Below are positions 3 to 64,000 of a stretch of DNA of 64,000 nucleotides, piece after piece (within the stretch, counting starts at the first letter, position 1; the number at the start of each line of letters is the position of its first letter). The stretch is from a virus. The DNA is taken from positions 1-64,000 of the IMG/VR virus record IMGVR_UViG_3300025508_000006; one strand, written 5' to 3'. The translations under genes were made by a program, and so were the position numbers. The notes under the pieces are model-generated. The model did not search any database. It was not told the DNA's origin and was given only the letters and a program-made list of their open reading frames with translations.

Positions 3-140
3 CACACTATCGAGTATGCTACTCCGATTAAGTTCACTGAGAAGACCGACATTGATGTTCGTGCTATTGGTGCCTCTAACGGTGTTATATCGGTGTCGTT
101 TGATTTAGTCCATGTTGAAAATAGTGTACTTAACTCATAA
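3..140 (+). CDS. 3' end of a hypothetical protein (truncated by window start)
   Basis: Open frame HTIEYATPIKFTEKTDIDVRAIG...VENSVLNS ends at TAA 138-140. Confidence 0.7.
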   Translation, partial: HTIEYATPIKFTEKTDIDVRAIGASNGVISVSFDLVHVENSVLNS

Positions 141-147
141 TAAAAGG

Positions 148-175
148 TTGACAACCAGCACCAGTATGTTATAAT
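148..175 (+). promoter_or_regulatory. sigma70-type early promoter
   Basis: TTGACA-16 nt-TATAAT with extended -10 TG, intergenic. Confidence 0.75.
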
Positions 176-207
176 AGCATATTACTTACTAGAACTAAGA
201 GAGAAAT

Positions 208-504
208 ATGAAGTCATTTAAGACACATCTCGAAGAATCCGCCAAAGTAAAGTGGATTAAAGTTGCTGACGGATACGCGAATAAAAAGATGGTGTACAAA
301 CACGTAACTTCTGATCGTATGTATGAAATACGTTTATCTGGTGCTGATTCTATGAAATTTAATAAAGATGGCAGTCAGAAAGTGTTGCCTACAGTCTTTG
401 ATAAGCATCCAGCAACATATAGTCCAAGATATCCTGTTACCGGATATAAGAATGTTGCTACAGCGAAAGCAGAAGTTGAGAGATGGATTGCCGATCATGA
501 ATAA
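208..504 (+). CDS. hypothetical protein with capsid-targeting-like N-terminus
   Basis: Starts MKSFKTHLEE, resembling T4 internal-protein signals (MKTYQEFIAE / MKTFKEF). Confidence 0.7.
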   Translation: MKSFKTHLEESAKVKWIKVADGYANKKMVYKHVTSDRMYEIRLSGADSMKFNKDGSQKVLPTVFDKHPATYSPRYPVTGYKNVATAKAEVERWIADHE

Positions 505-1726
505 TTTTAACGAGTTCATTACAGAAGCGGCACAAAAGAACACCCATATGACTCACATCGAAGATAAGGTGATCTACGGTGGTGCTGATGGAACTCGTCA
601 AGCAATCAATGCTCTTCGTGAGTTAAGAGATATGCTTGGCGGTAAGAAAGAAGGTTCTGTATCAGTCAAGTGGGACGGTGCACCAGCAGTATTTGCCGGT
701 ACTGATCCCTCTGACGGTAAGTTCTTTGTTGCTAAGAAAGGCATCTTCAATAAGAATCCAAAGATATACAAGACTGATGCTGACATCGATGACGATACGT
801 CTGGCGATCTCAATGACAAACTAAAACTTGCATTGAAGTATTTACCTGAACTTGGTATTAAAGGAGTCATTCAAGGTGACTTTCTATACAAGCGTTCTGA
901 ATTAAAGAAGAAGAAGATCGGCACAGAATCGTATCTCACCTTTCACCCTAACACAATCGTGTATGCAGTACCCGTAAAACAATCTAAAGAACTACTTGCT
1001 TCTAAAATCGGCATTGTATGGCACACTACATATACAGGTAGTTCTTTTGAAACTATGAGCGCATCATACGGTGTTGATGTAAACAAACTGAAGAAGTCAA
1101 CTAATGTCTGGTCACAGGACGCTATCTTGCGTGATGTGTCTAATGCAACGATGACTAAAAAAGAAACGGATGAAGTAAATGAAACTCTATCACAAATTGG
1201 CAAACTTTTTAACCAAATCTCTGGAAGCACTCTTCGCGTATTATCCGCCAACCCAGGACTTGCAGGTACTATCGAAACCTTTAATAACACCTACGTTAGA
1301 CGAGGAGAAGTCATCGGAGACTCCAAAAAGCACGCCGAAAAACTCATCGCCTACATCAACCAAAAGTACCAAAAAGAAATCGACAAGCGTAGCACCGAAA
1401 AAGGCAAAGGCGCCCAAAAAGCGAAGCGCGACGAAATCCTCAAGTTCTTCAGCAAAGAAAACAAAATAAGTCTCATTAAGATGTTTGAATTGCAGAAATT
1501 GATTGTTTTAGTTAAATTAAAACTTATAAATAACCTTAATAGATTAAGTAATATTGGTGCGTTTGTTAAAACTAAGAACGGATACAAGACTACTGGTCAA
1601 GAAGGTTATGTTGCAATAGACACACTTGGTGGTGATGCGGTGAAACTAGTTGATCGTATGGAGTTTTCATACAACAACTTTTCACCTGATATATTAAAAG
1701 GATGGGATAAACCAAAGGGTAAATAA
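497..1726 (+). CDS. putative ligase-fold (RNA ligase-like) nucleotidyltransferase, DUF6267-like, with capsid-targeting-like N-terminus
   Basis: Likely start ATG 497 (MNNFNEFITE). Motifs SVKWDG (KxDG), IQGDF, EGYV and AVKLV occur in ligase order. Confidence 0.6.
   Translation: MNNFNEFITEAAQKNTHMTHIEDKVIYGGADGTRQAINALRELRDMLGGKKEGSVSVKWDGAPAVFAGTDPSDGKFFVAKKGIFNKNPKIYKTDADIDDDTSGDLNDKLKLALKYLPELGIKGVIQGDFLYKRSELKKKKIGTESYLTFHPNTIVYAVPVKQSKELLASKIGIVWHTTYTGSSFETMSASYGVDVNKLKKSTNVWSQDAILRDVSNATMTKKETDEVNETLSQIGKLFNQISGSTLRVLSANPGLAGTIETFNNTYVRRGEVIGDSKKHAEKLIAYINQKYQKEIDKRSTEKGKGAQKAKRDEILKFFSKENKISLIKMFELQKLIVLVKLKLINNLNRLSNIGAFVKTKNGYKTTGQEGYVAIDTLGGDAVKLVDRMEFSYNNFSPDILKGWDKPKGK
1179..1469 (+). 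CDS. candidate overprinted Lys/Ser/Pro/Thr-rich basic protein (+1 frame inside 497..1726)
   Basis: 96-codon ORF coinciding with a strong shift of the host gene's third positions to C/A that reverts at its stop. Confidence 0.5.
   Translation: MKLYHKLANFLTKSLEALFAYYPPTQDLQVLSKPLITPTLDEEKSSETPKSTPKNSSPTSTKSTKKKSTSVAPKKAKAPKKRSATKSSSSSAKKTK
1525..1532 (+). promoter_or_regulatory. T4-type late promoter
   Basis: TATAAATA about 200 nt upstream of ORF 1728. Confidence 0.55.
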
Positions 1727-53542: not shown

Positions 53543-56500
53543 ATGGCAAATATATTCACATCTAATACGTTATCTGGAAGTTATGCAGACGATTATAACG
53601 CTAATGACAACTATCATCAGATATTGTTTAACAGCGGTCGCGCACTTCAGTCACGAGAACTTACACAGATGCAGACTCTTATCTATGAAGAGATGGGTCG
53701 CATGGGTTCGAACATATTTAAAGACGGTGCAGTAGTAAATGGTGGTGGTGTTAGCATGAACAATGCTTATCACTTCGTCAAGATTGCATCTACTAATCAG
53801 GGTGGCGAGTTCGGTGCTATACCAAACGGCACTATCATAAAGAATCCTAACACAAATGTTTCTGCTCAGGTTATTCAAGCGATACCTGCTAACGGTACTC
53901 AGTTATTTGATACACTGTTCGTTGAGTACATTAATAGTGGTAATGCACTAGCGACAAATTCACCAACTACATTTGGTGATAACGAAACCCTAGTTGAGCA
54001 ATTTGCTACAAGCAGTGCTTATGAGTTAGTGACAGAGACTCCTGATGCGACAGGTTACGGTGCTAAGTTTACTGTTGCAGAAGGCGACTTCTTCATTCTA
54101 GGTCGTTTTGTTCATACCGAAGAACAGTCGATTATTCTTTCATCTTATACTGGTGACAACATTAATGCTGAGGTAGGTTTCAAAGTCATTCAGCAAGTAG
54201 TAACTGTTACAGATACCGATTCTCTCTATGACAATGCTTCGGGTATTGTTAATACTGCTTCACCTGGTGCTGATCGACTTCGCATCAGATTAGAACTTAC
54301 TACTAGAGATTTGATTGGAGTAAACGATACGTTCGTATTCCTTGCAGAGGTTGAAAACTCAGCAATCAGTGAACAACTACAATCTATTGACGCATATAGT
54401 AAAATCGAAGAACTTCTTGCGCTACGTACTAAGGAAGAGTCTGGTGATTATGTTGTCGAACCTTTCATTGTTAATGTCAGTGAAAACGACAATGGCATAG
54501 ATGCTAATCTCGAACTTAATGTAAGTGAAGGTACTGCATATGTAAATGGTTATCGTGCAGAGAATCAATCACCAATTACTTTAAGTCTTCCACGACCAAC
54601 AGAAACCGAGACAGTAGAGAACGATGTTATCGGTGTGAACTACGGCAACTACTTTGTATGTACTGCAAACAGAGGTCTTCCTAATCTTGATCTTGCAAGA
54701 GTTGACTTGTGGAGCGCAACAGGTTATGGCGGTGGTGGTACTGATTACGGTACTTGTCGTATTCGTGCAGTAGAACCTTTCGGAACTAAGTTTAAAGTTT
54801 ATGTATTTGACATGAGAGTGTTTACTACAGAAGACCTCGGTAATGTAAAAAGTATTGGTTCCTCAACTACTGATTACTTCGATATCGATTTACAGGGTGG
54901 TAAAGCAGTACTACACGAAACTACTAATAATAATACAGCATTATTTGCAGCGGCATATCCTCGTATAGAGTCTCTTGCAGATATTGTGTTATCAAAACAA
55001 GTACGTCAACAAAAGACTGCATCCACTAATGCTGTCACTCTTGATCAGTTACCCGTGGGTTCTTCATATGTAGATTCATCTTTATGGATTGTAAGTTTAA
55101 GCAGTGCAGTGATCGAAGCACCTAGCACCTACACTGTTGCTATCACTAACGGTGGTAGAGATGCTACTATAACAAGTCTTGCTAGTGCTTCTGGTACGTA
55201 TGAAATTCTTGCTTATGTTCAGAAGACTGCAACAGTTCGTCCAAAGACTCTCACAACCGCAACTGCAACTATCAACAGTACTACTGACTCTGCTGGTCGT
55301 ACATTGTTTGATATTGGTGTTCCTGACATCTACTCTATTGATTCAGTGCGTCAAAGTAACAGTGTAGGTTTTGATCTCTCGTCCGCAGTAGTACTTGACG
55401 ATGGACAACGTGACAACTATTATGCTGACGGTAGTCTTTTACTCAAAGAAGGTCATGCAGATCCTTCTGCGATCTACATTTCATATAAGCACTTTGCACG
55501 AGGCAGTGGTGATTTCTACGCTCCTTCTTCTTACAACGTTCCTTATAAAGATATTCCTTTACATACATCAGTCACTGGTGATACAATTGATCTACGTGAT
55601 GTTGTTGACTTCAGAGGAGATAGAAATGGTTTCGAAGGAACTTTCTCTAATGTCAATGCTCTACCTAGAGTAGGTACTAATATTACTGCTGATATCGACT
55701 ATTATCTACCTCGTGCAGATAAAGTGATTATTACACCAGAAGGTGAAGTACAAGTATTAATGGGTCAGCAAGCGCGTGAACCTCAGTTCAAAGAAACGCC
55801 TATGCACTCTATGGAACTATACAAGATTATTCTCAACGGTAATACTATCAGCGAAAATGATTTGACTGTACTTCCAACAGCACAGCAACGCGGTTACACG
55901 ATGAAAGATATTGGTGATATTGATCGCAAATTAGATGCTCTTGAAGAATCCACATCATTAAGCATTGCAGAACTTGAAGCGAGATTGGACAATGTTCTTG
56001 ATAGTGCTGGTGTTATTCGTATCATTAGTGGTATGCAAGTAGACGAGCATGGCGATCAAGGCAATAGTGAAGTCGAATCACCCGATTATAAGGCAGCAAT
56101 TGATCCTGAGAATCGTTTAGTACGTCCTTCTTTTGAAGAAGGTAATATGCGTCTAATCTTCGACTCGGCGGCATCTTCGGGTGTTGTTAAGAAAGGTGAT
56201 AATGTTTATCTTGCTCACACCGAAGCATCTTGGGTAAACCAAAGTATTGCATCACGGTCAGTTAAGATCAATCCGTTCGGTCTTATTGATAATGTAGGAA
56301 CGATGAAACTATCACCATCAACTGATGAGTGGAAAGAATCTATTCAAAATGCCGCCAAGTCTCTTGCGGGTTCGGGTCGTCTATTCGGTAATCAGGCATT
56401 CTTATGGAATAACTGGATGTGGAACTGGCAGGGACGTACTGCGAAAGAGAATGCTGAAATTTCTAAGTTGGCAGGAGTAGTTCGTACTGGTTCTGGCAGA

Positions 56501-58921
56501 GCGAAAGCATTTGCTTTAAGAACATTACATAATAAATATGGACTATCACAATCCGCCACTATCAAACGTATTATCTCTGGTAATACTCTACGTAACGTAG
56601 TAGGTGACAGAACTATTGATGTTGCATTTGTACCATGGATTAGATCACGTAAGATTTACTTCAAGGCACAAGGACTAACGCCCAACACTAAGTTTACACC
56701 ATTCTTTGATGGTACTGATGTTTCAGTTTGGTGTCGCGAAGAATCATCGTTTGTTCAGTGGTCTGATAGAACAGATGAGATTGGTAACAAGTTTACTCAC
56801 TCAGCGATAGTCGGTCATCCAGACGGCACAAGCGATCTGATTGCTGATGCTAACGGCGAAGTTATTGGATCATTCTTCATTCCTAATATCAGTCCTAAGT
56901 TAGAAGTTGCTCACACTAAGTATCGCGGACGATACAACAAATATTATCTACGATTCAGATCAGGCGCACGAGAGTTCAAACTTCTCGATATTAATGTCAA
57001 TGATTGGGCAAGTGCAAACAGTAAAGCATTCACTCACTATACTGTTAAAGGTCTGTTGCCTTGGACTTGGTACAATCCTTTAACTTATACACGTGGTCAT
57101 CGTTATCTTTATCCTTACAACTATCGACATAAGTTGTATTCAGCAAAAGAAATGAAAAAGGTTCTTGATAGTATACCAGCGAGTCAGGTGAATATTATTG
57201 ATCCAAGATTATCTGGACTATATGGTCCTGACGGTGTATCTCTGAATGCGGCAGCACTACAGACGCTTGCTAATAATCAAGATATGTCTAAGGTTCTGTC
57301 TGACTACATTAACGTGAATCAGGCACAGTTCGCTTCTATTCTTGGTGTAAGAGCAATTCCTACTCCTATGAATCCATTGGCACAGTCCTTTAAAGTCAAC
57401 AACGAGTTTGGCGTAACACTAACTAAAATCGAGTTGTTCTTTAAGTCGAAACCAACTAATGTATCTCTGCCTGTTTCTGTACATGTTCGTCCTGTAGAGA
57501 ATGGTAAACCTTCGATGAGTAGCATAGTACCAGACTCGCATGTTTATGTCAATAGTGCAAATGTTATTGTTTCTAGCACAGGTGCTCAGTTAGCAACTAT
57601 TCAAGGTAATGGAACGTCATTCGTATTCGACGAACCTATTTACTTGGCACCAGGACAAGACTATGCTATTGTAGTTACTTCACAGTCAACTGAATATGAA
57701 TTGTTCAGTGCTAGAACTAGAGAGTCGGTTATCAACTCAACTGGTAGATACAACACTACACAAACTCCGGGTTATCTCTTCTTACCACAAAATGGTAAGA
57801 ACTGGGAGAAATCACAGAACGAAGACTTAATGTTTAAAGTTACTCGTGCAGTGTTCGGTTCAGGCGGCGGTGCTAACGGTAGTGTGATATTGAAAAATGC
57901 TTCTGTTCCTGCTAAACTTCTTGAAGAGAATCCGATTCAAACTACGTTCAGCGACGAAAAGATTTATGTACGTCACATCAATCACGGTTTACGTCCAGGT
58001 GATGGTTGTAATGTTGATAGTGCTACAGAAACGGGTGGTTTCTCTGCCGCACAGTTGAGCGGTTCGCATCAAGTTATTGATGTTGATATGTACGGTTACA
58101 GATTTGAAATTGATCCTTCTAATCCTGTTGTTGCTACATCAACAGCAACTGGTGGTGGTGAGAGAGTATTGTCACAAGGAAATATAAACTTCTCAGTAGT
58201 TAATCCAATTATCGAGTCGATTATTCCTAACTCTACTTCGATTGATGTATCAGGTAAGTTTACTTCTGGGCGATCAATCTCTGGTTCAGAAACTCGATTT
58301 ACACAGGACGCTAATTTTAACAGAATTACTCCTAAGACTAATACTGATCTTGCCTCAACGTTCACTCTGTATAACGACTTCGAAGTTGATTCATCTACCA
58401 TGAGCGGAATCAATTCTTCTACTTTGTTTAAAGTTGACATGAAGAGTGCTAATGATTATGTTTCACCAATCATTGACTTACAAAGATCATCTTTGGTCAC
58501 AGTAAACAATCTAGTTGATGATCCATCGGTTACTCCTCACATCTATAGTGTTGGAGCAACGGCAGCATCAGGAGCGTCTTCAAGTACTGCTCACATTATG
58601 AAACCAGTTGTTCTTGATCAACCTGCTATCGGTATTGAGATTACAGCGGAGTTAGCGATACACTATACAAGTAATGTTAAAGTATACTATAGAGTAGGCG
58701 CCGCAGATGAGAATCTTAATGATCTTGTATGGATACTTCAACCAGAATTTAGCACTATCGTTAAAGATGCACAAATGCGTAAAGTTAAGTTTCTTGCTGG
58801 TGGTCAGGGCGGTACACTGAAACCATTTAATCAAGCACAGACTAAGTTGATTATTGAAGGAACTGATCCTGCAAATACAGCAAAAATAGGTGATATAGTT
58901 GTTAAGTGGTTAGCAAGTTAA
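53543..58921 (+). CDS. large virion structural protein (DUF4815/VrlC-like)
   Basis: Y.DD, ILF..GR.LQ.RELTQ.Q, PGADR, RT.EESGDY.V.PF, G.AYV.GY, PLAQSF, EDL.F...RA.F, SPIID. Confidence 0.82.
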   Translation: MANIFTSNTLSGSYADDYNANDNYHQILFNSGRALQSRELTQMQTLIYEEMGRMGSNIFKDGAVVNGGGVSMNNAYHFVKIASTNQGGEFGAIPNGTIIKNPNTNVSAQVIQAIPANGTQLFDTLFVEYINSGNALATNSPTTFGDNETLVEQFATSSAYELVTETPDATGYGAKFTVAEGDFFILGRFVHTEEQSIILSSYTGDNINAEVGFKVIQQVVTVTDTDSLYDNASGIVNTASPGADRLRIRLELTTRDLIGVNDTFVFLAEVENSAISEQLQSIDAYSKIEELLALRTKEESGDYVVEPFIVNVSENDNGIDANLELNVSEGTAYVNGYRAENQSPITLSLPRPTETETVENDVIGVNYGNYFVCTANRGLPNLDLARVDLWSATGYGGGGTDYGTCRIRAVEPFGTKFKVYVFDMRVFTTEDLGNVKSIGSSTTDYFDIDLQGGKAVLHETTNNNTALFAAAYPRIESLADIVLSKQVRQQKTASTNAVTLDQLPVGSSYVDSSLWIVSLSSAVIEAPSTYTVAITNGGRDATITSLASASGTYEILAYVQKTATVRPKTLTTATATINSTTDSAGRTLFDIGVPDIYSIDSVRQSNSVGFDLSSAVVLDDGQRDNYYADGSLLLKEGHADPSAIYISYKHFARGSGDFYAPSSYNVPYKDIPLHTSVTGDTIDLRDVVDFRGDRNGFEGTFSNVNALPRVGTNITADIDYYLPRADKVIITPEGEVQVLMGQQAREPQFKETPMHSMELYKIILNGNTISENDLTVLPTAQQRGYTMKDIGDIDRKLDALEESTSLSIAELEARLDNVLDSAGVIRIISGMQVDEHGDQGNSEVESPDYKAAIDPENRLVRPSFEEGNMRLIFDSAASSGVVKKGDNVYLAHTEASWVNQSIASRSVKINPFGLIDNVGTMKLSPSTDEWKESIQNAAKSLAGSGRLFGNQAFLWNNWMWNWQGRTAKENAEISKLAGVVRTGSGRAKAFALRTLHNKYGLSQSATIKRIISGNTLRNVVGDRTIDVAFVPWIRSRKIYFKAQGLTPNTKFTPFFDGTDVSVWCREESSFVQWSDRTDEIGNKFTHSAIVGHPDGTSDLIADANGEVIGSFFIPNISPKLEVAHTKYRGRYNKYYLRFRSGAREFKLLDINVNDWASANSKAFTHYTVKGLLPWTWYNPLTYTRGHRYLYPYNYRHKLYSAKEMKKVLDSIPASQVNIIDPRLSGLYGPDGVSLNAAALQTLANNQDMSKVLSDYINVNQAQFASILGVRAIPTPMNPLAQSFKVNNEFGVTLTKIELFFKSKPTNVSLPVSVHVRPVENGKPSMSSIVPDSHVYVNSANVIVSSTGAQLATIQGNGTSFVFDEPIYLAPGQDYAIVVTSQSTEYELFSARTRESVINSTGRYNTTQTPGYLFLPQNGKNWEKSQNEDLMFKVTRAVFGSGGGANGSVILKNASVPAKLLEENPIQTTFSDEKIYVRHINHGLRPGDGCNVDSATETGGFSAAQLSGSHQVIDVDMYGYRFEIDPSNPVVATSTATGGGERVLSQGNINFSVVNPIIESIIPNSTSIDVSGKFTSGRSISGSETRFTQDANFNRITPKTNTDLASTFTLYNDFEVDSSTMSGINSSTLFKVDMKSANDYVSPIIDLQRSSLVTVNNLVDDPSVTPHIYSVGATAASGASSSTAHIMKPVVLDQPAIGIEITAELAIHYTSNVKVYYRVGAADENLNDLVWILQPEFSTIVKDAQMRKVKFLAGGQGGTLKPFNQAQTKLIIEGTDPANTAKIGDIVVKWLAS

Positions 58922-58922
58922 A

Positions 58923-59153
58923 ATGTCGCGCTACGTTAAAGTAGATGGTGTTCCTGGGTTAGTTCGAGATATGGAGTCTAATGCGTTAATAAACGTAAAT
59001 TCTCATGAGATCGAACTTGCCCAGAAACAAAAGAGAATAAGAGAGAAGTCTAAAATAAATCGTCAAAACTTAGAGGATACAGTAGAAGTACTTCAGAAAG
59101 ATATGTGTGAAATAAAGGAAGCATTAGCAATATTGCTTTCCAGAAGCATATAA
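58923..59153 (+). CDS. small coiled-coil hypothetical protein
   Basis: KV.G..GLVRD..SNA.IN...EIK..L..L. Confidence 0.78.
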   Translation: MSRYVKVDGVPGLVRDMESNALINVNSHEIELAQKQKRIREKSKINRQNLEDTVEVLQKDMCEIKEALAILLSRSI

Positions 59154-59156
59154 ATA
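59149..59156 (+). promoter_or_regulatory. T4-type late promoter
   Basis: TATAAATA upstream of ATG 59189. Confidence 0.8.
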
Positions 59157-59188: not shown

Positions 59189-62100
59189 ATGTCCTTACCG
59201 CTAAAACATCTCGGCACTGGTGCTCTTCAAGAACTCGCTACGCTTGATATTGATTATCTTGCGTATCAAGCGGGTATTCATCTTGGTAAAATGAGTAACG
59301 AAGATGTCTCTGCTATCTCCACAAATGGTAGCGGAGCAACAGTTGTCGGATCTTTTACAGATACTCTGTATGAGACAACAGTCGGTTCTACTCCAGGAAC
59401 AACTTACACCGTAAACTTTACTGTTGAACATCGTTCTAATCCTGGAACTGGTACACATACTGCAATATTCACAGCACAGAATGAAATGCCATCTCCTTTA
59501 TATGTCGGAGATACAGTTTATGTTATCGTGAACGGTGATGCTATAACTGGATTCGAAGAGATCGGACACGAACTTGCTGTATCTGGTGATGCACTATTTG
59601 TTACCGAAGGTGTTAACACAACACCTACAGCAAATTCAGTTGATGGAACAAGAGTCGAGTGGGAAGACTTTCAGAATGTCGCAGGTCTCTCGGGATCATA
59701 TCAGTCTGCCTTTGAAATTAAAGTGACTCAAGTAGGTCTCTTAAACTTTACTTTAACTGCTAACTCTACTGACGTAGATAACACAATCAAACAAACTGCT
59801 AATACTAGTATTATATTTCCTACTGTTGAAGTTGAAGAGACTTTACCACCGGAGTCTATAGGCGTACAGACTGATCTTTATCAAAAGACTACTGCTTCAC
59901 AACCTATTAATACGACCAGTGCTTTAAAGAAAAATCCAATATACTGGAACAGAGCATTAACGCCTAATGGTGTTAAGGAGATGAATGACGCAGAACTTGA
60001 CGCATTTTGCGAAGAGTTAGTCATACGTATTATGCGGGACGAGTTGCCTGGTACTTATCGTCTATCCTCTAACAGTCCTGGTGCTAATTGGGTTCAGTTT
60101 ATTCCTAGCGTATTCGAAGATACTCGTGCTGACGGAACTACAGTACCGTATTCAATATGGATAAGACAAGCGGGTATTAAACCTACTGTAATCAGACCAG
60201 TTTATGTTGCACGTAATGTAGAGAATGGTTGGGCAGGACTAAAAGAACATACAGATGCCGAAGTAGAATTTACTTTCGGCGAACGCGTAAAGAAAGCAAT
60301 TGAAACTACAGGAATTGGTAAGTATCAGTTGCGCTCTTCAACACAAGGTGCACCCACTGATGCAGGTACATGGGTTGCACGTGGTAGTGCAATAGATACA
60401 AGACTTGAATACTTCTATGATACTGGTTATCAGGCACTAGAAACCTACACGTCACAATATACAGAAGATTATCTTGGTGAGTATGAAGCAACTTATGCGG
60501 GTAACTATGAACCCACTTACACAGGCGAGTTCACAGGCGATTACCTAGGCACTTACGATGGTGACTTCATTGGCAACTACACTCCAACATATGACGGTGA
60601 TTATCTAGGCGATTACTCGCAGAACTATCTTGGTGACTACAACACAGAATATACTCAGAACTATCTAGGTGACTATGTAAATCAATACACACCTACATAT
60701 GATGGTGCCGATTACATTAGTGATTATGAAAATACATATGATGCTGATGCTGTCATTGAGCAATATGCCAGCGACTACGAATCTGTCGATTACGTTGGCA
60801 ACTATATTTCTGATTATAACACAGACTATATTTCCGATTATACCAATACATATCTTTCAGACTATTCTGGTACAGAGTATGTCGGCAATTATATTTCTGA
60901 TTATCTAGGTGGATTCCAGACCGATTATCTCGGAAACTATATTTCAAATTATATTGATGATGTTTATGTAGGCAACTACATCACTGATTACACCAGCGAT
61001 TATATTAGTAACTATCTTGGATCTTATGATGGTGATTATCTAGGTGATTATGGCGCAAGTTATGAAGGTGCTTATGATAACTCATACGAAGGAGACTTCC
61101 AAGCAACTTATGCTGGTGACTTCACTGCTGATTATCTCGGAACATATCTGACAGATTACGATTCGCAATACGAAGGGCAGTTCTCTGAAAACTACGATGG
61201 TGATTACATCAGCGACTATCTCGGAACATATTCTAGTGGATATGAGTCTGAATATGAGACAGGTTATATAACCCAATACGAAGGCGCGTATGATGAATCA
61301 GAATATGTGGGCAACTTTGTTGCTAGTTATGATAACTCATACGAAGGAGACTTCCAAGCAACTTACGCTGGTGATTACATCAGCGACTATCTCGGAACAT
61401 ACCTAAATGATTATGATTCACAATATGAAGGTCAATTCGCAGATAACTACGCCGGCGATTACATCAGCGACTACCTTGGAACATACGCTAGTGGATATGA
61501 GTCTGATTACTCCACTGACTACCTTACACAATACGAAGGTGCGTATGATGAATCAGTATATGTGGGCAACTTTGTTGCTAGTTATGATAACTCATACGAG
61601 GGTGACTTTCAAGCAACTTATGCTGGTGACTTCACTGCTGATTATCTTGGAACATACCTAAATGATTATGATTCACAATATGAGGGTCAGTTCGCAGATA
61701 ACTACGATGGTGATTACATCAGCGACTATCTCGGAACGTACACTAGCGGATATGTGTCTGATTACTCTACTGACTATCTTACACAATACGAAGGTGCGTA
61801 TGATGAAGCGAATTATCTAGGAAACTTTGTTGCTGATTATGTGTCTGACTTCGAAGGTGCTTACACCAATTTGTATGCTGGTGATTATATCAGCGACTAT
61901 CTTGGAACATATGCTGGTGAATATGAAAGTGCTTATGCTACAAACTTCGATGGTATTTACGTTGGTGGATTCGATACAGATTATACAGCAACTTTTGATG
62001 GAGAATACGAGAACACCTATATCGGCAACTATGTTTCAGACTATCTTAATGAGTTTGAAACCACATACACAGGCGACTATGGTGGTGAATACACCTCTAC

Positions 62101-64000
62101 TTACGCCGGTAATTATAGTGGCAACTATATTTCAGATTATACGAATGAGTTTGAAACCACATACATCGGTGACTATGGCGGTGAATATGTTTCTACTTAC
62201 GCTGGTAATTATAGTGGCAACTATGTTTCAGACTATCTTAATGAGTTTGAAACCACATACGCAGGTGATTATGGTGGACAATATACTTCTACTTACGCTG
62301 GTAATTATAGTGGCAACTATGTTTCTGACTATCTTAATGAGTTTGAAACACCATACGTAGGAAATTATAGCGGTGAATATGTTTCTACTTACGCTGGTAA
62401 CTACCAAACACAATACGCCAATGACTATACTAATGAGTTTGAAACAACTTATACTGGTGATTATCTAGGTAACTATGAAACTGATTATGCAGGCAATTAT
62501 ATTACTCAATACTCTGCCGAATATCAAGTACCTTACACTGGTGTTTACACAGGCGATTACATCTCTGACTATATTGGTGATTACATCTCACCTTATGATG
62601 GCGCTCTGTACACTTCAGATTATATCTCTACTTACGAAAGTGCATATGGTGGTCAATTTGAATCATCATACACTGGAGTATTTGACGGAACAACATACTC
62701 AGGAAACTATGCTAGTCAATACGTAGGCAACTACATTGGCCTATACAACAAGAACTACGCGACAGCATATGAAGGCACTGATTACATATCCACATACGAA
62801 GAAACTTACACTGGAGATTATTCTGGACAATATTCTTCTGCTTATGTAAGCGTTTATGATGCTCAAGCATATGCTACAGCATACGAAGAGAATTATATTG
62901 GAGATTATTCTGGTACATTCGGTGCTACGTTCTTAGGAACTTATGATAGTTCAAACTATACTTCAACATACGTAGAGACTTATGTTGGTGATTATCTTGG
63001 TAATTATGCTTCTGCTTATGTAAGCGTTTATGATGCTCAAGCATATACTGCATCGTTTGACACAACCTATTCTGGTGAGTACTCGGGCGTATTTAACGCA
63101 TCTTTTGCAGGCGAATATGATAGTACACAATATACTTCATCATTTGAAACTACATATGTTGGTGATTATATTGGTCAATTTAGTCAGAACTTTGCTGCCA
63201 GTTTCGACGGAATACCTTATGTAGGATCATTCGAGACAAACTATGTCGGCAACTATCTCGGACTGTTCACAGGTCAGTTCTCAGCATCATTTGCGGGTTC
63301 TGATTACATCTCAATATTTACTGCTCAGTATACTTCGCAATATACTGGACAGTTTAGTGCTACTTTCAATGCTTCTTATGATGCTACAACATATGTAGGA
63401 GATTATGTATCTGGATACGCAACAGCATATAGCGGTGCGTTTGGTGCAACCTTTATTGGCGAATATGATAGACAAGCATATGATACACAGTTTTCAGCAA
63501 CTTATACCGGAAACTATATTGGTCTATTCTCTGCTACATTCTTAGGAACGTATGATAGAACAGGTTATGCTTCTAATTTTACTGCTGACTATACAGGTAA
63601 TTATACTGGTGCCTTCGGTGCTACATTCTTAGGAACGTATGATCGTCTGCAATACACAAATGAATTTGAAAGTGCATATCTCGGCAACTATATCGGACTG
63701 TTCACACAAACGTATATTGGTTCTTATCAAAGAATCAACTATCTTACACAGTACGAAGGCATATACACAGGTGATTATAGTGGTGCCTTCAGTGCTACAT
63801 TCTTAGGAACGTATGATCGTGCTGCCTATGCACGAGAGTATGACAGAGTTTATACAGGTAATTATACTGGCCAGTTCACAGCAAACTATGCCGCGACATA
63901 TGATCGAATTGACTACACTTCTCAATACACGGGCGGTTATACTGGCGGTCCCGCTGAAACTTTCGGTGCTACATTCTTAGGAACGTATGATCGTGCTGGA
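59189..64000 (+). CDS. giant virion-type protein with Tyr/Phe every fourth residue (at least 1604 aa, runs off window; absent from ORF track)
   Basis: ATG 59189 MSLPLKHLGTG...; same frame reads FGATFLGTYDRAG at the window end; repeat region from about 60410. Confidence 0.88.
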   Translation, partial: MSLPLKHLGTGALQELATLDIDYLAYQAGIHLGKMSNEDVSAISTNGSGATVVGSFTDTLYETTVGSTPGTTYTVNFTVEHRSNPGTGTHTAIFTAQNEMPSPLYVGDTVYVIVNGDAITGFEEIGHELAVSGDALFVTEGVNTTPTANSVDGTRVEWEDFQNVAGLSGSYQSAFEIKVTQVGLLNFTLTANSTDVDNTIKQTANTSIIFPTVEVEETLPPESIGVQTDLYQKTTASQPINTTSALKKNPIYWNRALTPNGVKEMNDAELDAFCEELVIRIMRDELPGTYRLSSNSPGANWVQFIPSVFEDTRADGTTVPYSIWIRQAGIKPTVIRPVYVARNVENGWAGLKEHTDAEVEFTFGERVKKAIETTGIGKYQLRSSTQGAPTDAGTWVARGSAIDTRLEYFYDTGYQALETYTSQYTEDYLGEYEATYAGNYEPTYTGEFTGDYLGTYDGDFIGNYTPTYDGDYLGDYSQNYLGDYNTEYTQNYLGDYVNQYTPTYDGADYISDYENTYDADAVIEQYASDYESVDYVGNYISDYNTDYISDYTNTYLSDYSGTEYVGNYISDYLGGFQTDYLGNYISNYIDDVYVGNYITDYTSDYISNYLGSYDGDYLGDYGASYEGAYDNSYEGDFQATYAGDFTADYLGTYLTDYDSQYEGQFSENYDGDYISDYLGTYSSGYESEYETGYITQYEGAYDESEYVGNFVASYDNSYEGDFQATYAGDYISDYLGTYLNDYDSQYEGQFADNYAGDYISDYLGTYASGYESDYSTDYLTQYEGAYDESVYVGNFVASYDNSYEGDFQATYAGDFTADYLGTYLNDYDSQYEGQFADNYDGDYISDYLGTYTSGYVSDYSTDYLTQYEGAYDEANYLGNFVADYVSDFEGAYTNLYAGDYISDYLGTYAGEYESAYATNFDGIYVGGFDTDYTATFDGEYENTYIGNYVSDYLNEFETTYTGDYGGEYTSTYAGNYSGNYISDYTNEFETTYIGDYGGEYVSTYAGNYSGNYVSDYLNEFETTYAGDYGGQYTSTYAGNYSGNYVSDYLNEFETPYVGNYSGEYVSTYAGNYQTQYANDYTNEFETTYTGDYLGNYETDYAGNYITQYSAEYQVPYTGVYTGDYISDYIGDYISPYDGALYTSDYISTYESAYGGQFESSYTGVFDGTTYSGNYASQYVGNYIGLYNKNYATAYEGTDYISTYEETYTGDYSGQYSSAYVSVYDAQAYATAYEENYIGDYSGTFGATFLGTYDSSNYTSTYVETYVGDYLGNYASAYVSVYDAQAYTASFDTTYSGEYSGVFNASFAGEYDSTQYTSSFETTYVGDYIGQFSQNFAASFDGIPYVGSFETNYVGNYLGLFTGQFSASFAGSDYISIFTAQYTSQYTGQFSATFNASYDATTYVGDYVSGYATAYSGAFGATFIGEYDRQAYDTQFSATYTGNYIGLFSATFLGTYDRTGYASNFTADYTGNYTGAFGATFLGTYDRLQYTNEFESAYLGNYIGLFTQTYIGSYQRINYLTQYEGIYTGDYSGAFSATFLGTYDRAAYAREYDRVYTGNYTGQFTANYAATYDRIDYTSQYTGGYTGGPAETFGATFLGTYDRAG
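60410..64000 (+). repeat. nested coding repeats: 12-nt period with 255-, 96- and 87-nt higher-order units
   Basis: gataactcatacga at 61076/61331/61586; gagtttgaaac at 62051/62147/62243/62339/62435; gctacattcttaggaacgtatgat at 63533/63620/63794/63968. Confidence 0.9.

What the first reader, a model, noticed from the sequence alone, without database searches (positions are those of the whole stretch)
59189..64000. Giant acidic protein with an aromatic residue every fourth position for about 1200 residues
Seen: after a roughly 400-aa N-terminal region with internal duplication (GTYRLSSNSPG..W..DTR / GKYQLRSS..G.W..DTR), the chain becomes (Y/F)-x-(G/S/x)-(D/N/E/T/Q) tetrads, for example YLGD YSQN YLGD YNTE YTQN. 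There is almost no Lys, Arg or Cys for hundreds of residues, and occasional 5-residue steps occur. Higher-order units of 85 aa (20 tetrads plus one pentad, about 3 copies), 32 aa (5 copies) and 29 aa (6 tetrads plus one pentad) show successive expansions. It follows a late promoter next to baseplate genes and is missing from the ORF track because it has no stop in the window. I recognise no fibre family with this pattern. Inference: a new fibrous fold (Tyr-ladder beta-ribbon or helix) forming a long polyanionic appendage. It might bind Ca/Fe or particles, be cross-linked through Tyr, or carry the glycans.
Basis: partly seen in the sequence, partly recalled or inferred. Interest (0 to 1): 0.8.

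Follow-up and report, generated by a model that had tools for sequence, protein, structure and literature searches.

The report
Giant fold-back tyrosine-repeat phage fibre
An uncultured freshwater T4-like phage encodes a 3,509-residue fibre-like protein with an aromatic residue at every fourth position, whose chain most likely runs out to a tip domain and back to its own anchor domain as one enormous hairpin, a design that no characterised fibre family has.

Summary
The ORF starts at 59189 and runs to 69718 of the same 116-kb virus record (3,509 aa). It has two tracts of about 1,450 aa with Tyr or Phe every fourth residue. In arm 1, 87% of aromatic spacings equal 4, against 11% in shuffles. 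The tracts hold almost no Lys or Arg and carry net charges of -193 and -208. A 165-aa non-repeat domain sits exactly between them.

It matches no Pfam, PHROG or PDB sequence. It belongs to a large phage-only family (590 clusters at 50% identity, 397 to 3,756 aa). All members share an N-terminal anchor domain and the last residues ..ETYTLYVR(V/T/I)A.

Five lines of evidence indicate an out-and-back hairpin:
- AlphaFold2 docks the C-terminal strand onto the anchor domain.
- The anchor's internal duplication shows that the repeat region replaces a 5-residue hairpin turn.
- The non-repeat domain sits at the midpoint in most members.
- Tandem arrays of equal period lie at mirror-image distances in both arms.
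- Close relatives differ by equal-length indels at mirror positions (24/24, 28/28, 14/14, 12/12, 176/176).

The gene is the first one after the VrlC-like baseplate gene, so it is most likely a host-recognition fibre. The local fold, the oligomer state and the function are inferred. The acidity is specific to this clade. Earlier notes of this scan found the same family on other DNA.

The parts
59149..59156 (+). TATAAATA, a T4 late-promoter-like motif 33 nt upstream of the start codon
   Evidence: There are 6 copies in the window, all on the + strand, and 4 lie just before structural ORFs. The count itself is not above chance.
59189..64000 (+). The part of the giant gene that lies in the window. 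The whole gene is 59189-69718 on the same record (window = record 1-64000) and encodes 3,509 aa. These parts lie beyond the window end, in record coordinates:
- rest of arm 1, to 64828;
- central tip domain, aa 1881-2045, at 64829-65323;
- arm 2, aa 2046-3480, at 65324-69628;
- arm 2 array of 96 bp x3.4 at 67697-68018;
- arm 2 array of 258 bp x3.0 at 68208-68990;
- conserved C-terminal strand ..I-E-T-Y-T-L-Y-V-R-V-A plus stop at 69674-69718.
   Evidence: - Whole gene and its composition.
- Arrays.
- Tip domain: it lies at relative position 0.50-0.515 of the repeat region. It has no known relative except in L012.
- C-terminal strand: it is invariant in 110 complete members. It is modelled inside the anchor domain at pLDDT 83-96.
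59189..60403 (+). N-terminal anchor domain (aa 1-405): three helix-plus-hairpin modules, conserved across the family
   Evidence: Alignment A3. AF2 models of two relatives give pLDDT 70-97. The best structural matches are MABP-type beta-prism domains at Z 5.0-5.9.
59417..59863 (+). Clade-specific insertion of about 150 aa (aa ~77-225) at the hairpin tip of module 1
   Evidence: Alignment A3: present only in this protein and its nearest relatives (L012, L022, L024).
60047..60178 (+). Module 2 hairpin (aa 287-330): G-T-Y-R-L-S-S..W..D-T-R, a 5-residue turn, then the return strand Y-S-I-W-I-R
   Evidence: Internal-duplication alignment. This is the closed, short version of the hairpin that module 3 expands.
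60314..60403 (+). Module 3 outgoing strand (aa 376-405): G-K-Y-Q-L-R-S-S..G-T-W..D-T-R, the base of the giant hairpin
   Evidence: In the AF2 model of P0027 the equivalent residues form a 27-residue strand at pLDDT 80-96.
60404..64000 (+). Arm 1, the outgoing tetrad tract (aa 406-1880). It is clipped here at the window end and continues to record position 64828.
61072..61841 (+). Arm 1 tandem array, 255 bp x3.0 (85 aa), 996-1252 aa from the tip domain
   Evidence: It mirrors the 258-bp x3.0 array in arm 2 (961-1221 aa from the tip domain).
62024..62464 (+). Arm 1 tandem array, 96 bp x4.6 (32 aa), 788-934 aa from the tip domain
   Evidence: It mirrors the 96-bp x3.4 array in arm 2 (791-897 aa from the tip domain). 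One 4,373-nt contig of an independent run bridges that arm 2 array.
62594..64000 (+). Run of eighteen consecutive 29-aa units (six tetrads plus one pentad), aa 1136-1629. It is clipped at the window end and continues to record position 64075.

Best explanation
The gene encodes a virion fibre of a previously undescribed architecture, in an uncultured freshwater T4-like myovirus.

The N-terminal 405 residues form an anchor domain of three helix-plus-hairpin modules. The hairpin of the third module is not closed by a short turn. Instead the chain leaves the domain and runs about 1,470 residues outward as arm 1. It then forms a 165-residue tip domain and returns about 1,435 residues as arm 2. Its last ten residues (E-T-Y-T-L-Y-V-R-V-A) insert back into the anchor domain as the return strand.

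Both arms are beta-type repeats of (Y/F)-x-(G/S/A/T)-(D/N/T/Q). One face alternates aromatic and small residues. The other face alternates beta-branched or aliphatic residues with polar or acidic ones. The two arms pair with each other in antiparallel, so fibre length can change only through matching insertions or deletions in both arms.

The gene is the first one after the VrlC-like baseplate gene, at the start of the host recognition cluster. The most likely role is therefore a baseplate-attached host-recognition fibre that carries a variable receptor-binding domain at its far end.

Shown here: the repeat statistics, the family, the conserved ends, the central position of the tip domain, the mirrored arrays and the paired indels.

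Inferred: virion attachment, the receptor-binding role of the tip, and the oligomeric state (probably a trimer, as for other phage fibres, giving six strands). It is also unresolved whether the arms are a fully extended ribbon (at most about 480 nm) or a coiled form with one turn per 28-29 residues.
For: (1) Family with conserved ends. A profile of the N-domain finds 590 clusters at 50% identity, 248 of them at E<=1e-30. Of the proteins held, 110 are complete and all end in ..ETYTLYVR... Their repeat region varies continuously from 138 to 3,342 aa.

(2) AF2 of the 404-aa member P0027. Mean pLDDT is 73.5. The anchor domain scores above 90. A long strand at 242-268 and a long strand at 374-402 (pLDDT 95-96 at the C-terminus) flank a low-confidence middle. 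AF2 of the 764-aa member from L078 gives pLDDT 64-83 for the last strand, while the 490 residues before it score about 25. Structure alignments treat N-domain residues and the C-terminal residues as one domain (model ranges 40..404, 219..404 and 232..764).

(3) Internal duplication. Module 2 (..D-T-R, a 5-residue turn, Y-S-I-W-I-R) aligns colinearly with module 3 plus the C-terminus (..D-T-R, then 3,093 aa, then Y-T-L-Y-V-R). In 95 members both return strands follow Y-(N/S/T)-(I/L)-(Y/W)-x-(R/K).

(4) Central tip domain. Among 48 non-redundant members, the largest non-repeat insert has a median relative position of 0.517, and 40% lie within 0.45-0.55 against 10% expected. Among members with a single insert, 15 of 27 lie in that band by my count of the rows printed. 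Aromatic counts per arm are 349/346 here, 292/299 in L057 and 215/212 in P0003.

(5) Mirrored tandem arrays.
- This gene: 85-aa x3.0 at 996-1252 aa from the centre in arm 1, against 86-aa x3.0 at 961-1221 in arm 2.
- This gene: 32-aa x4.6 at 788-934 in arm 1, against 32-aa x3.4 at 791-897 in arm 2. The unit sequences differ between the arms.
- The same pattern recurs independently in L018 (116/112 aa and 58/56 aa), L057 (60/60 aa) and L023 (28/28 aa).
- Ten loop-bearing 28/29-mers lie on each side of the tip domain, and Y-D-A-D-A-V lies at 1363 and 1343 aa from it.

(6) Paired indels between close relatives.
- L039/L038: 24 and 24 aa at relative positions 0.426 and 0.546.
- L039/L046: 28/28, 14/14 and 12/12.
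- L037/L023: 120+56 = 176 aa in arm 1 and 176 aa in arm 2.

(7) Context. Upstream lie gp5-like, gp25, gp6, a wedge subunit and a DUF4815 (VrlC-like) protein; tail fibre genes lie downstream. PMC7029224 defines the host recognition cluster as starting after VrlC and says the genes just downstream are the tail fibres in most genomes.

(8) The gene is real. Contigs at >=99% identity occur in four runs from four freshwater studies, one of them an RNA library.
Against: - No experiment and no cultured phage exist. The only named record with the family is Phage C48C1.
- AF2 gives pLDDT of about 25-30 for the arms themselves, so their pairing is not modelled.
- Some members have clearly unequal arms or an off-centre largest insert (relative position 0.15-0.82). 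One paralog group sits at about 0.62.
- One indel between two otherwise identical relatives is unpaired (24 aa, L033/L035).
- A crude search for a residue-by-residue pairing rule between the arms of this protein found only a shared 7-rung phase.
- Mirror similarity of composition is positive in the acidic members but often negative in the basic ones.
- The 255-bp and 258-bp arrays are not bridged by short-read contigs, so their copy numbers rest on one assembly.
- Virion association is inferred from gene position only.
Confidence: 0.72

Rival explanations
1. The topology is fold-back, but each arm is a beta-solenoid rather than an extended ribbon. Each coil has 28-29 residues and seven stacked aromatic ladders, which is the first reader's 'Tyr-ladder helix'. 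The two arms lie side by side or interleave. The appendage would then be a rod of tens of nanometres and not a filament of hundreds.
For: - There is a strict 28/29-residue super-period: 18 consecutive 29-mers, and 10 loop-bearing units on each side of the tip.
- The seven tetrads of a unit have distinct identities, and longer loops always insert at the same place in the unit (read together).
- Both arms share a 7-rung phase of Phe against Tyr.
- Arm 1 uses multiples of 29 and arm 2 multiples of 28, both here and in L018.
Against: - The super-period is not constant in the family. The best lags are 12 (27 proteins), 24 (16) and 28 (14), plus 48 and 60. Twelve residues is too short for a coil.
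- AF2 extends the base of the hairpin as two straight 27-29-residue strands.
- A 28-29-residue period could equally be the helical repeat of a twisted ribbon. That is my inference and was not computed.
Confidence: 0.25
2. It is a conventional linear, parallel trimeric fibre. The N-terminus sits on the baseplate and a knob sits in mid-fibre. The conserved C-terminus is a docking site for another protein (a distal fibre, a chaperone or the small downstream protein). The chain does not fold back.
For: - Most characterised phage fibres are parallel trimers (established knowledge).
- Low AF2 confidence for the arms of a monomer is typical of such fibres.
- A conserved small ORF always follows the gene.
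Against: - It does not explain why the knob stays at the midpoint while length varies more than sixfold.
- It does not explain equal-period arrays at mirror distances or equal-length paired indels.
- It does not explain why the C-terminal strand matches the return strand of the duplicated module or why AF2 places it confidently inside the anchor domain.
Confidence: 0.08
3. It is not a virion fibre. It would be a secreted or cell-surface-directed repeat protein, for example a polyanionic decoy, a matrix component or an adhesin made during infection, that merely lies in the structural region.
For: - There is no proteomic or microscopic evidence of virion association.
- The host recognition cluster of related phages also holds non-structural genes such as glycosyltransferases (PMC7029224).
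Against: - Synteny between baseplate wedge genes and tail fibre genes is conserved in about 80 loci.
- A late-promoter-like motif precedes the gene.
- The family occurs in phage records only: one hit among 185,579 species genomes, on a 142-kb contig that I judge from its size to be a phage contig.
- The anchor domain shows weak similarity to T4 gp11, a baseplate protein.
Confidence: 0.05

Closest known systems
Needle domain of the T4 long tail fibre tip, gp37 (Bartual et al. [quoted passage not shown]
   Same: It is a phage fibre segment in which the chain runs out to the receptor-binding end and comes back. Three chains therefore give six antiparallel strands, and the receptor-binding part sits at the turn.
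   Different: The gp37 needle is short, within a C-terminal fragment of about 200 residues. It is held by His-coordinated iron ions, and it is the end piece of a long parallel trimer. Here the arms have no His at all, the whole fibre is the hairpin (138 to 3,342 residues), it is built of aromatic tetrads, and it emerges from a loop of its own anchor domain. There is no sequence similarity.
T4 gp11, baseplate wedge/tail pin protein (PDB 1EL6; Pfam PF08677)
   Same: - It occupies a comparable place in the gene order: after the wedge genes and before the fibre genes.
- Both have two W-containing hairpin modules, the second at the very C-terminus. gp11 has G-(Y)-G-x-W-x-x-L-G..T..(12-16 residue hairpin)..(Y/F)-x-(Y/F)-x-R-(T/V/I)-(A/S) at its end. 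The family has G-T-W-x-x-x-G..D-T-R..[arms]..Y-T-L-Y-V-R-(T/V/I)-(A/S) at its end.
- gp11 and a Klebsiella phage gp11-like chain recur in both structure searches, with 22-31% identity over 45-49 aligned residues.
   Different: The structure scores are weak (Z 2.6-4.0). Profile-profile comparison is not significant (hhalign E 0.11 and 0.36). No member hits PF08677. gp11 is 219 aa and has no fibre; it binds the separate short tail fibre gp12.
MABP-type beta-prism domains (MVB12B MABP domain 3TOW; C-terminal domains of Plu-MACPF 2QP2 and Mpf2Ba1 8B6V; perforin-2 P2 domain 6SB1)
   Same: These are the best structural matches to the anchor domain: Z 5.0-5.9, rmsd 3.4-5.8 Å, 114-122 aligned residues, spanning model residues 40-404 and so including the C-terminal strand. 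Both have a three-module pseudo-symmetric beta arrangement.
   Different: Sequence identity is 7-9% and Z is below 8, which the tool marks as possibly only a common arrangement. The functions are unrelated. None of them carries an expanded repeat hairpin of hundreds to thousands of residues.
Tail fibre genes of the 'host recognition cluster' of pelagimyophages and cyanomyophages (Zaragoza-Solas et al. 2020, PMC7029224)
   Same: The genomic position is the same: directly downstream of the VrlC-like gene. The region is hypervariable and mixes fibre genes with glycosyltransferases, and the paper names GT8 as the most represented family.
   Different: In the passages I read by term search, that paper does not describe this protein family, its tetrad repeats or its topology. 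It states that tail fibre proteins could not be identified reliably. The cultured relatives HTVC008M, Melnitz and the cyanophages give no tblastn hit with the anchor domain.
Pentapeptide-repeat and other beta-solenoid repeat proteins (recalled from general knowledge)
   Same: Both are very regular short repeats with one hydrophobic or aromatic position per unit, and both allow stacked ladders.
   Different: The period is 4, not 5. There is no Pfam repeat family match. The two-arm mirror organisation has no counterpart.

Membership tests
T4 gp11 (PF08677, baseplate wedge/tail pin) | Sequence match to the family profile | tested here: not met
   hmmscan of the whole protein at E<=1 and of 18 short members at E<=10 gave no PF08677 hit. 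hhalign of the family against T4 gp11 gave E 0.11, and against eight gp11 sequences E 0.36. The own-genome search found nothing, but its control genomes did not ring either.
T4 gp11 (PF08677, baseplate wedge/tail pin) | Fold of the finger and head domains | tested here: inconclusive
   1EL6_A: Z 4.0 with 49 residues aligned at 31% identity, and Z 2.9 with 49 aligned at 29% identity. 9F4B_FD: Z 3.6 and 2.6. The hits are recurrent but weak.
T4 gp11 (PF08677, baseplate wedge/tail pin) | C-terminal W-hairpin ending in (Y/F)-x-(Y/F)-x-R-(T/V/I)-(A/S/G) | tested here: met
   Six of the eight gp11 sequences fetched end in this pattern, which the family shares. The other two end ..L-Q-Y-F-K-R-V-S and ..Y-Y-Y-R-R-K-A. 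The comparison is at motif level and post hoc.
T4 gp11 (PF08677, baseplate wedge/tail pin) | Homotrimer that binds gp10 and gp12 in the baseplate | not testable with these tools
   Only single-chain prediction is offered. No gp10 or gp12 homologue was identified next to the gene.
T4 gp37-type needle domain | Chain reversal at the receptor-binding end, giving antiparallel strands | tested here: met
   The topology is inferred. It has not been seen in a solved structure.
T4 gp37-type needle domain | His-x-His motifs coordinating iron along the core | tested here: not met
   The arms contain no His at all.
T4 gp37-type needle domain | Sequence similarity to gp37 or lambda Stf tips | tested here: not met
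   There is no PDB sequence hit for arm 1 or the tip domain, and no Pfam hit.
MABP beta-prism fold | Three-sheet pseudo-threefold prism | tested here: inconclusive
   The top four structural matches are all of this fold, at Z 5.0-5.9 with 114-122 aligned residues. Three helix-plus-hairpin modules appear in the AF2 secondary structure. Z below 8 is not decisive.
Known phage fibre repeat families in Pfam and PHROGs (collagen-like, Phage_fiber_2, tail collar and others) | Profile match | tested here: not met
   There are 0 Pfam and 0 PHROG families for the whole protein and none of substance for 18 short members.
Pentapeptide repeat proteins | Five-residue period | tested here: not met
   87-89% of aromatic spacings equal 4, and pentads are occasional single steps.

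The most novel reading that the evidence does not exclude
This family would be a new class of fibrous protein, a protein 'stem-loop'. One chain, or three in a bundle, zips back on itself over up to about 1,500 residues per arm. Its length evolves by compensatory paired indels, as in an RNA helix. In this phage the fibre could reach several hundred nanometres, about 480 nm if fully extended, and carries its receptor-binding domain at the turn. That would make it among the longest phage fibres, and the design would be modular and tunable in length.
Probability: 0.5. Interest if true: 0.85.

Novelty: new variant of a known kind. Interest (0 to 1): 0.75.

Why it matters
If the reading is right, a widespread group of aquatic T4-like phages (at least 590 protein clusters) recognises hosts with a fibre built on a principle not described for any characterised fibre. 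The whole shaft is one hairpin that grows out of a loop of its own anchor domain. Its two halves must lengthen and shorten together.

This would matter in four ways:
- It would give a name and an architecture to the first gene of the host recognition cluster of uncultured freshwater and marine myoviruses, which current pipelines annotate as hypothetical.
- It would give structural biology a simple, highly regular (Y/F)-x-small-polar beta repeat whose pairing can be tested on members of about 400 residues.
- It would offer a natural scaffold of adjustable length.
- It would make a question testable: why do related phages keep strongly acidic or strongly basic versions of the same fibre?

Tried and rejected
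Sequence and profile searches with no useful result:
- Pfam and PHROG scans of the whole protein, the tip domain and 18 short members found nothing of substance.
- PDB sequence searches with the anchor profile, arm 1 and the tip domain returned only chance-level rows.
- The ESM Atlas gave no usable hit for the tip domain.
- tblastn against 50,697 phage records found only Phage C48C1 for the anchor domain and the arms, and nothing for the tip domain.

Structure searches:
- Foldseek of the 404-aa model against the PDB gave no match at E<=0.001.
- Foldseek of the 764-aa model against BFVD gave only meaningless low-TM rows.
- AF2 did not model the arms (pLDDT about 25-30), so the local fold stays open.

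gp11 homology:
- Profile-profile comparison with T4 gp11 was not significant, even with eight gp11 sequences and a concatenated anchor-plus-C-terminus construct. I do not file the protein as a gp11 member.

Tests of arm pairing that were inconclusive:
- The mirror-composition test across the family is enriched at the midpoint (39.5% against 20%) but is negative in many basic members.
- A residue-level pairing rule between the arms, a lead from earlier notes of this scan, was not detected here with a rung-offset correlation.

Assembly support:
- Short-read contigs break at the 255-bp and 258-bp arrays, so copy number there could not be checked.
- The weak alternative joints (for example 5105 to 5418 of L008, with a 21-letter side) look like repeat artefacts.

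Considered and rejected:
- Assembly artefact as an explanation of the whole gene. It is found at >=99% identity in four independent freshwater studies.
- A cellular origin. There is one hit in 185,579 species genomes, on a 142-kb contig that I judge from its size to be a phage contig.

Full report
**What is there.** The window is the first 64 kb of a 116,030-bp IMG/VR virus record that CheckV rates 67% complete. The ORF at 59189 has no stop in the window. On the whole record it ends at 69718 and encodes 3,509 residues. Its parts are:
- an N-terminal domain (aa 1-405);
- tetrad tract 1 (aa 406-1880);
- a Trp-rich non-repeat domain (aa 1881-2045);
- tetrad tract 2 (aa 2046-3480);
- a short C-terminus ending I-E-T-Y-T-L-Y-V-R-V-A.

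**Repeat statistics.** In tract 1, 289 of 333 spacings between successive aromatic residues equal 4 and 29 equal 5. The observed fraction is 0.868, against a mean of 0.106 and a maximum of 0.156 in 500 shuffles. In tract 2, 304 of 341 spacings equal 4. Lys plus Arg is at most 0.8% in both tracts. Cys, His, Met and Trp are absent. Net charges are -193 and -208. The tetrad is (Y 80% / F 20%), then a mixed position (T, I, V, L, A, E), then a small residue (G 45%, S 20%, T 11%, A 10%), then a polar one (D 24%, T, N, Q). It is the same in both tracts. Family-wide autocorrelation of the non-aromatic, non-Gly positions also shows periods of 2 and 4, as expected for beta strands.

**Context.** The upstream genes are T4-type baseplate genes: a gp5-like hub/lysozyme, gp25, gp6, a wedge subunit, and a 1,792-aa protein with DUF4815. 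A 76-aa ORF whose PHROG match is annotated 'virion structural protein' lies between that protein and the giant gene. Downstream lie three small conserved ORFs, a fibre-assembly-like ORF, a 775-aa tail fibre protein and gp15. gp6 is closest to Phage C48C1 (Kyanoviridae, 39%), then to the Methylophilales phage Melnitz, pelagiphage HTVC008M and cyanophages. Zaragoza-Solas et al. (PMC7029224) define a hypervariable 'host recognition cluster' that begins after the VrlC gene in pelagimyophages and cyanomyophages. They state that the genes just downstream of VrlC are the tail fibres in most genomes. This gene occupies that place. TATAAATA lies 33 nt before the start codon. The gene occurs at >=99% identity in contigs of four runs from four freshwater metagenome studies, one of them an RNA library. 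The index lists 20 holders in 15 studies. The gene is therefore not an assembly artefact, and the phage is a freshwater one.

**The family.** There is no Pfam, PHROG or PDB sequence match. The syntenic 3,347-aa ORF of C48C1 has the same N-terminal domain, aromatic tetrads and the same last nine residues. It is Arg-rich, and several globular inserts interrupt its arms. Scanning IMG/VR with an alignment of five members found 201 relatives. A profile of the N-domain finds 590 clusters at 50% identity in 1.84 billion representatives, 248 of them at E<=1e-30. All 110 complete proteins held end in ..E-T-Y-T-L-Y-V-R-(V/T/I)-(A/S). The region between the N-domain and that motif varies continuously from 138 to 3,342 residues. 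Members fall into acidic (net -80 to -500) and basic (net +50 to +200) classes, and many phages carry two tandem paralogs. Synteny is conserved: the VrlC-like gene, one or two family members, then ORFs of about 155, 250 and 235 aa. Among 185,579 species genomes the family appears once, on a 142-kb contig binned with a Sphingobacteriales genome. I take that contig to be a phage contig because of its size.

**Topology.** Conserved ends with a hypervariable middle are the reverse of an ordinary fibre, where the distal end varies. Five independent lines indicate that the chain goes out and comes back.

1. *Structure prediction.* AF2 of the 404-aa member P0027, with an alignment of 18 short members, gives an anchor domain at pLDDT above 90. 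It has a 27-residue strand at 242-268 and a 29-residue strand at 374-402. Confidence is 95-96 at the C-terminus and below 50 between the two strands. AF2 of a 764-aa member gives 64-83 for the last strand, after 490 residues at about 25. Structure alignments treat N-domain and C-terminal residues as one domain.

2. *Internal duplication.* The anchor domain has three helix-plus-hairpin modules. Module 2 reads G-T-Y-R-L-S-S..W..D-T-R, then a five-residue turn, then Y-S-I-W-I-R. Module 3 reads G-K-Y-Q-L-R-S-S..G-T-W..D-T-R, then 3,093 residues, then Y-T-L-Y-V-R. In 95 members both return strands follow Y-(N/S/T)-(I/L)-(Y/W)-x-(R/K). The repeat region therefore stands where a hairpin turn should be.

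3. *Midpoint of the tip domain.* The largest non-repeat insert lies at the midpoint. The median relative position is 0.517 in 48 members, and 40% fall within 0.45-0.55 against 10% expected. Among members with one insert, 15 of 27 fall there by my count of the rows printed. Aromatic counts per arm are nearly equal: 349/346 here, 292/299 in L057 and 215/212 in P0003.

4. *Mirrored tandem arrays.* Arm 1 carries 255 bp x3.0 and then 96 bp x4.6. Arm 2 carries 96 bp x3.4 and then 258 bp x3.0. The 85/86-mers lie 996-1252 and 961-1221 residues from the central domain. The 32-mers lie 788-934 and 791-897 residues from it. Copy divergence is similar (85-87%), but the unit sequences differ between the arms, so this is not gene conversion. 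The same pattern recurs independently in L018 (116/112 and 58/56 aa), L057 (60/60) and L023 (28/28). There are also ten loop-bearing 28/29-mers on each side of the centre, and Y-D-A-D-A-V lies at 1363 and 1343 residues from it.

5. *Paired indels.* Close relatives differ by equal-length indels at mirror positions: 24/24 (L039 against L038), 28/28, 14/14 and 12/12 (L039 against L046), and 120+56 against 176 (L037 against L023). This is the protein equivalent of compensatory change in an RNA stem. It is the strongest argument that the arms are in physical contact.

**Exceptions.**
- One paralog group has its globular domain at about 0.62 of the repeat region.
- A few members have off-centre inserts.
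- C48C1 has several inserted domains.
- One 24-aa indel between otherwise identical sequences is unpaired.

**What stays open.**
- *Local fold.* AF2 does not model the arms, so the local fold is inferred. If the strands are extended, the aromatic and small residues share one face. With a two-residue offset each ring would lie over a Gly of the partner strand, the 'aromatic rescue of glycine' effect, which I recall from the literature and did not test here. Three such ribbons could bury this face in a six-stranded core like the gp37 needle.
- *Length.* The upper bound is about 480 nm.
- *Super-period.* The strict 28/29-residue super-period, with fixed loop-insertion sites, argues for some regular coiling. 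Arm 1 uses multiples of 29 and arm 2 multiples of 28, both here and in L018. A solenoid with one coil per 28-29 residues is a serious rival. However, other subfamilies have super-periods of 12, 24, 48 or 60.
- *Pairing code.* I could not detect a residue-level pairing code in this protein.
- *Tip domain.* The central domain matches nothing known and is shared only with the closest relative. That fits a fast-evolving receptor-binding tip but does not prove it.

**Comparison with known systems.**
- The nearest working analogue is the needle of the T4 long tail fibre tip, where chains reverse at the receptor-binding end (PMC7291167). That needle is short and iron-stapled, and it is only an end piece.
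- The anchor domain's best structural matches are MABP-type beta-prisms at Z 5.0-5.9.
- T4 gp11 recurs at Z 2.6-4.0 with 22-31% identity over 45-49 residues. It shares a C-terminal W-hairpin ending in ..R-(T/V/I)-(A/S). Profile comparisons are not significant, so gp11 ancestry is a lead at roughly even odds and not a finding.

**Verdict.** Copy numbers of the two longest arrays rest on one short-read assembly. A close relative (L012) has an arm 1 about 290 residues shorter, which shows natural copy-number variation. Earlier notes of this scan describe the same family on other genomes and reach similar readings. They gave me the hairpin lead early, and I tested it here with my own analyses.

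Noticed in passing
G000 record 69718-71800 (L009:719-2611), just beyond the gene: Three tightly packed ORFs (157, 254 and 224 aa) follow the giant gene. ORFs of the same sizes and offsets follow the last family member in the loci with enough downstream DNA, apart from four where another family ORF comes next. 36 of 47 carry a W-(L/M)-x-N-A-F-W motif in the first ORF. None has a Pfam or PHROG hit here. Earlier notes of this scan call them a helical protein, a GT8-like transferase and an oxygenase-like protein.
   Followed up: partly
window 59417-59863: This protein and its closest clade carry an insertion of about 150 aa at the hairpin tip of the first module of the anchor domain. Most family members lack it. 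I guess it is an extra beta-rich domain at the fibre base; it was not folded.
   Followed up: no
L031, L078, L027, L050, L047, L064, L069, L071 (loci): Many related phages carry two tandem paralogs of the hairpin gene, each with its own anchor domain and C-terminal motif. The first paralog often has its globular domain off-centre, at about 0.62 of the repeat region.
   Followed up: partly
window 53543-58921: A 1,792-aa ORF with DUF4815 (E 2e-55), the VrlC-like protein that marks the start of the host recognition cluster in pelagimyophages and cyanomyophages. A 76-aa ORF follows it at 58923-59153; its PHROG match (phrog_473) is annotated 'virion structural protein'.
   Followed up: partly
L007:14734-24777 (Phage C48C1, OQ984149): The homologous 3,347-aa ORF contains a 225-bp unit repeated 2.0 times at 100% identity (aa 2025-2173). 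This is either a very recent duplication or an assembly artefact. Its arms are Arg-rich, and several globular domains interrupt them.
   Followed up: no
L100 (JAAXIF010000028.1, 142-kb contig of a Sphingobacteriales MAG): This is the only hit of the family in 185,579 species genomes. I take it to be a phage contig binned with a bacterium, because of its size. It is at best a weak hint at a Bacteroidota host for one relative.
   Followed up: no
window 1525, 3432, 41142, 49594, 52101, 59149: All six TATAAATA motifs in the window are on the + strand, and four lie just upstream of structural ORFs. The total count is not above chance (6 against 5.3 expected).
   Followed up: partly
L008:5105-5418 (record 64293-64606): Contigs of four independent runs show a weak alternative joint that skips 312 nt in the loop-bearing 28/29-mer region of arm 1, with only 21 letters on the shorter side. 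It could be a repeat artefact or a shorter natural variant.
   Followed up: no
L008 arrays, and L018 (IMGVR_UViG_3300022198_004556): Arm 1 repeats come in multiples of 29 residues (29, 58, 116) and arm 2 repeats in multiples of 28 (28, 56, 112), in two lineages only 36% identical. This suggests the two arms follow slightly different path lengths per turn.
   Followed up: partly
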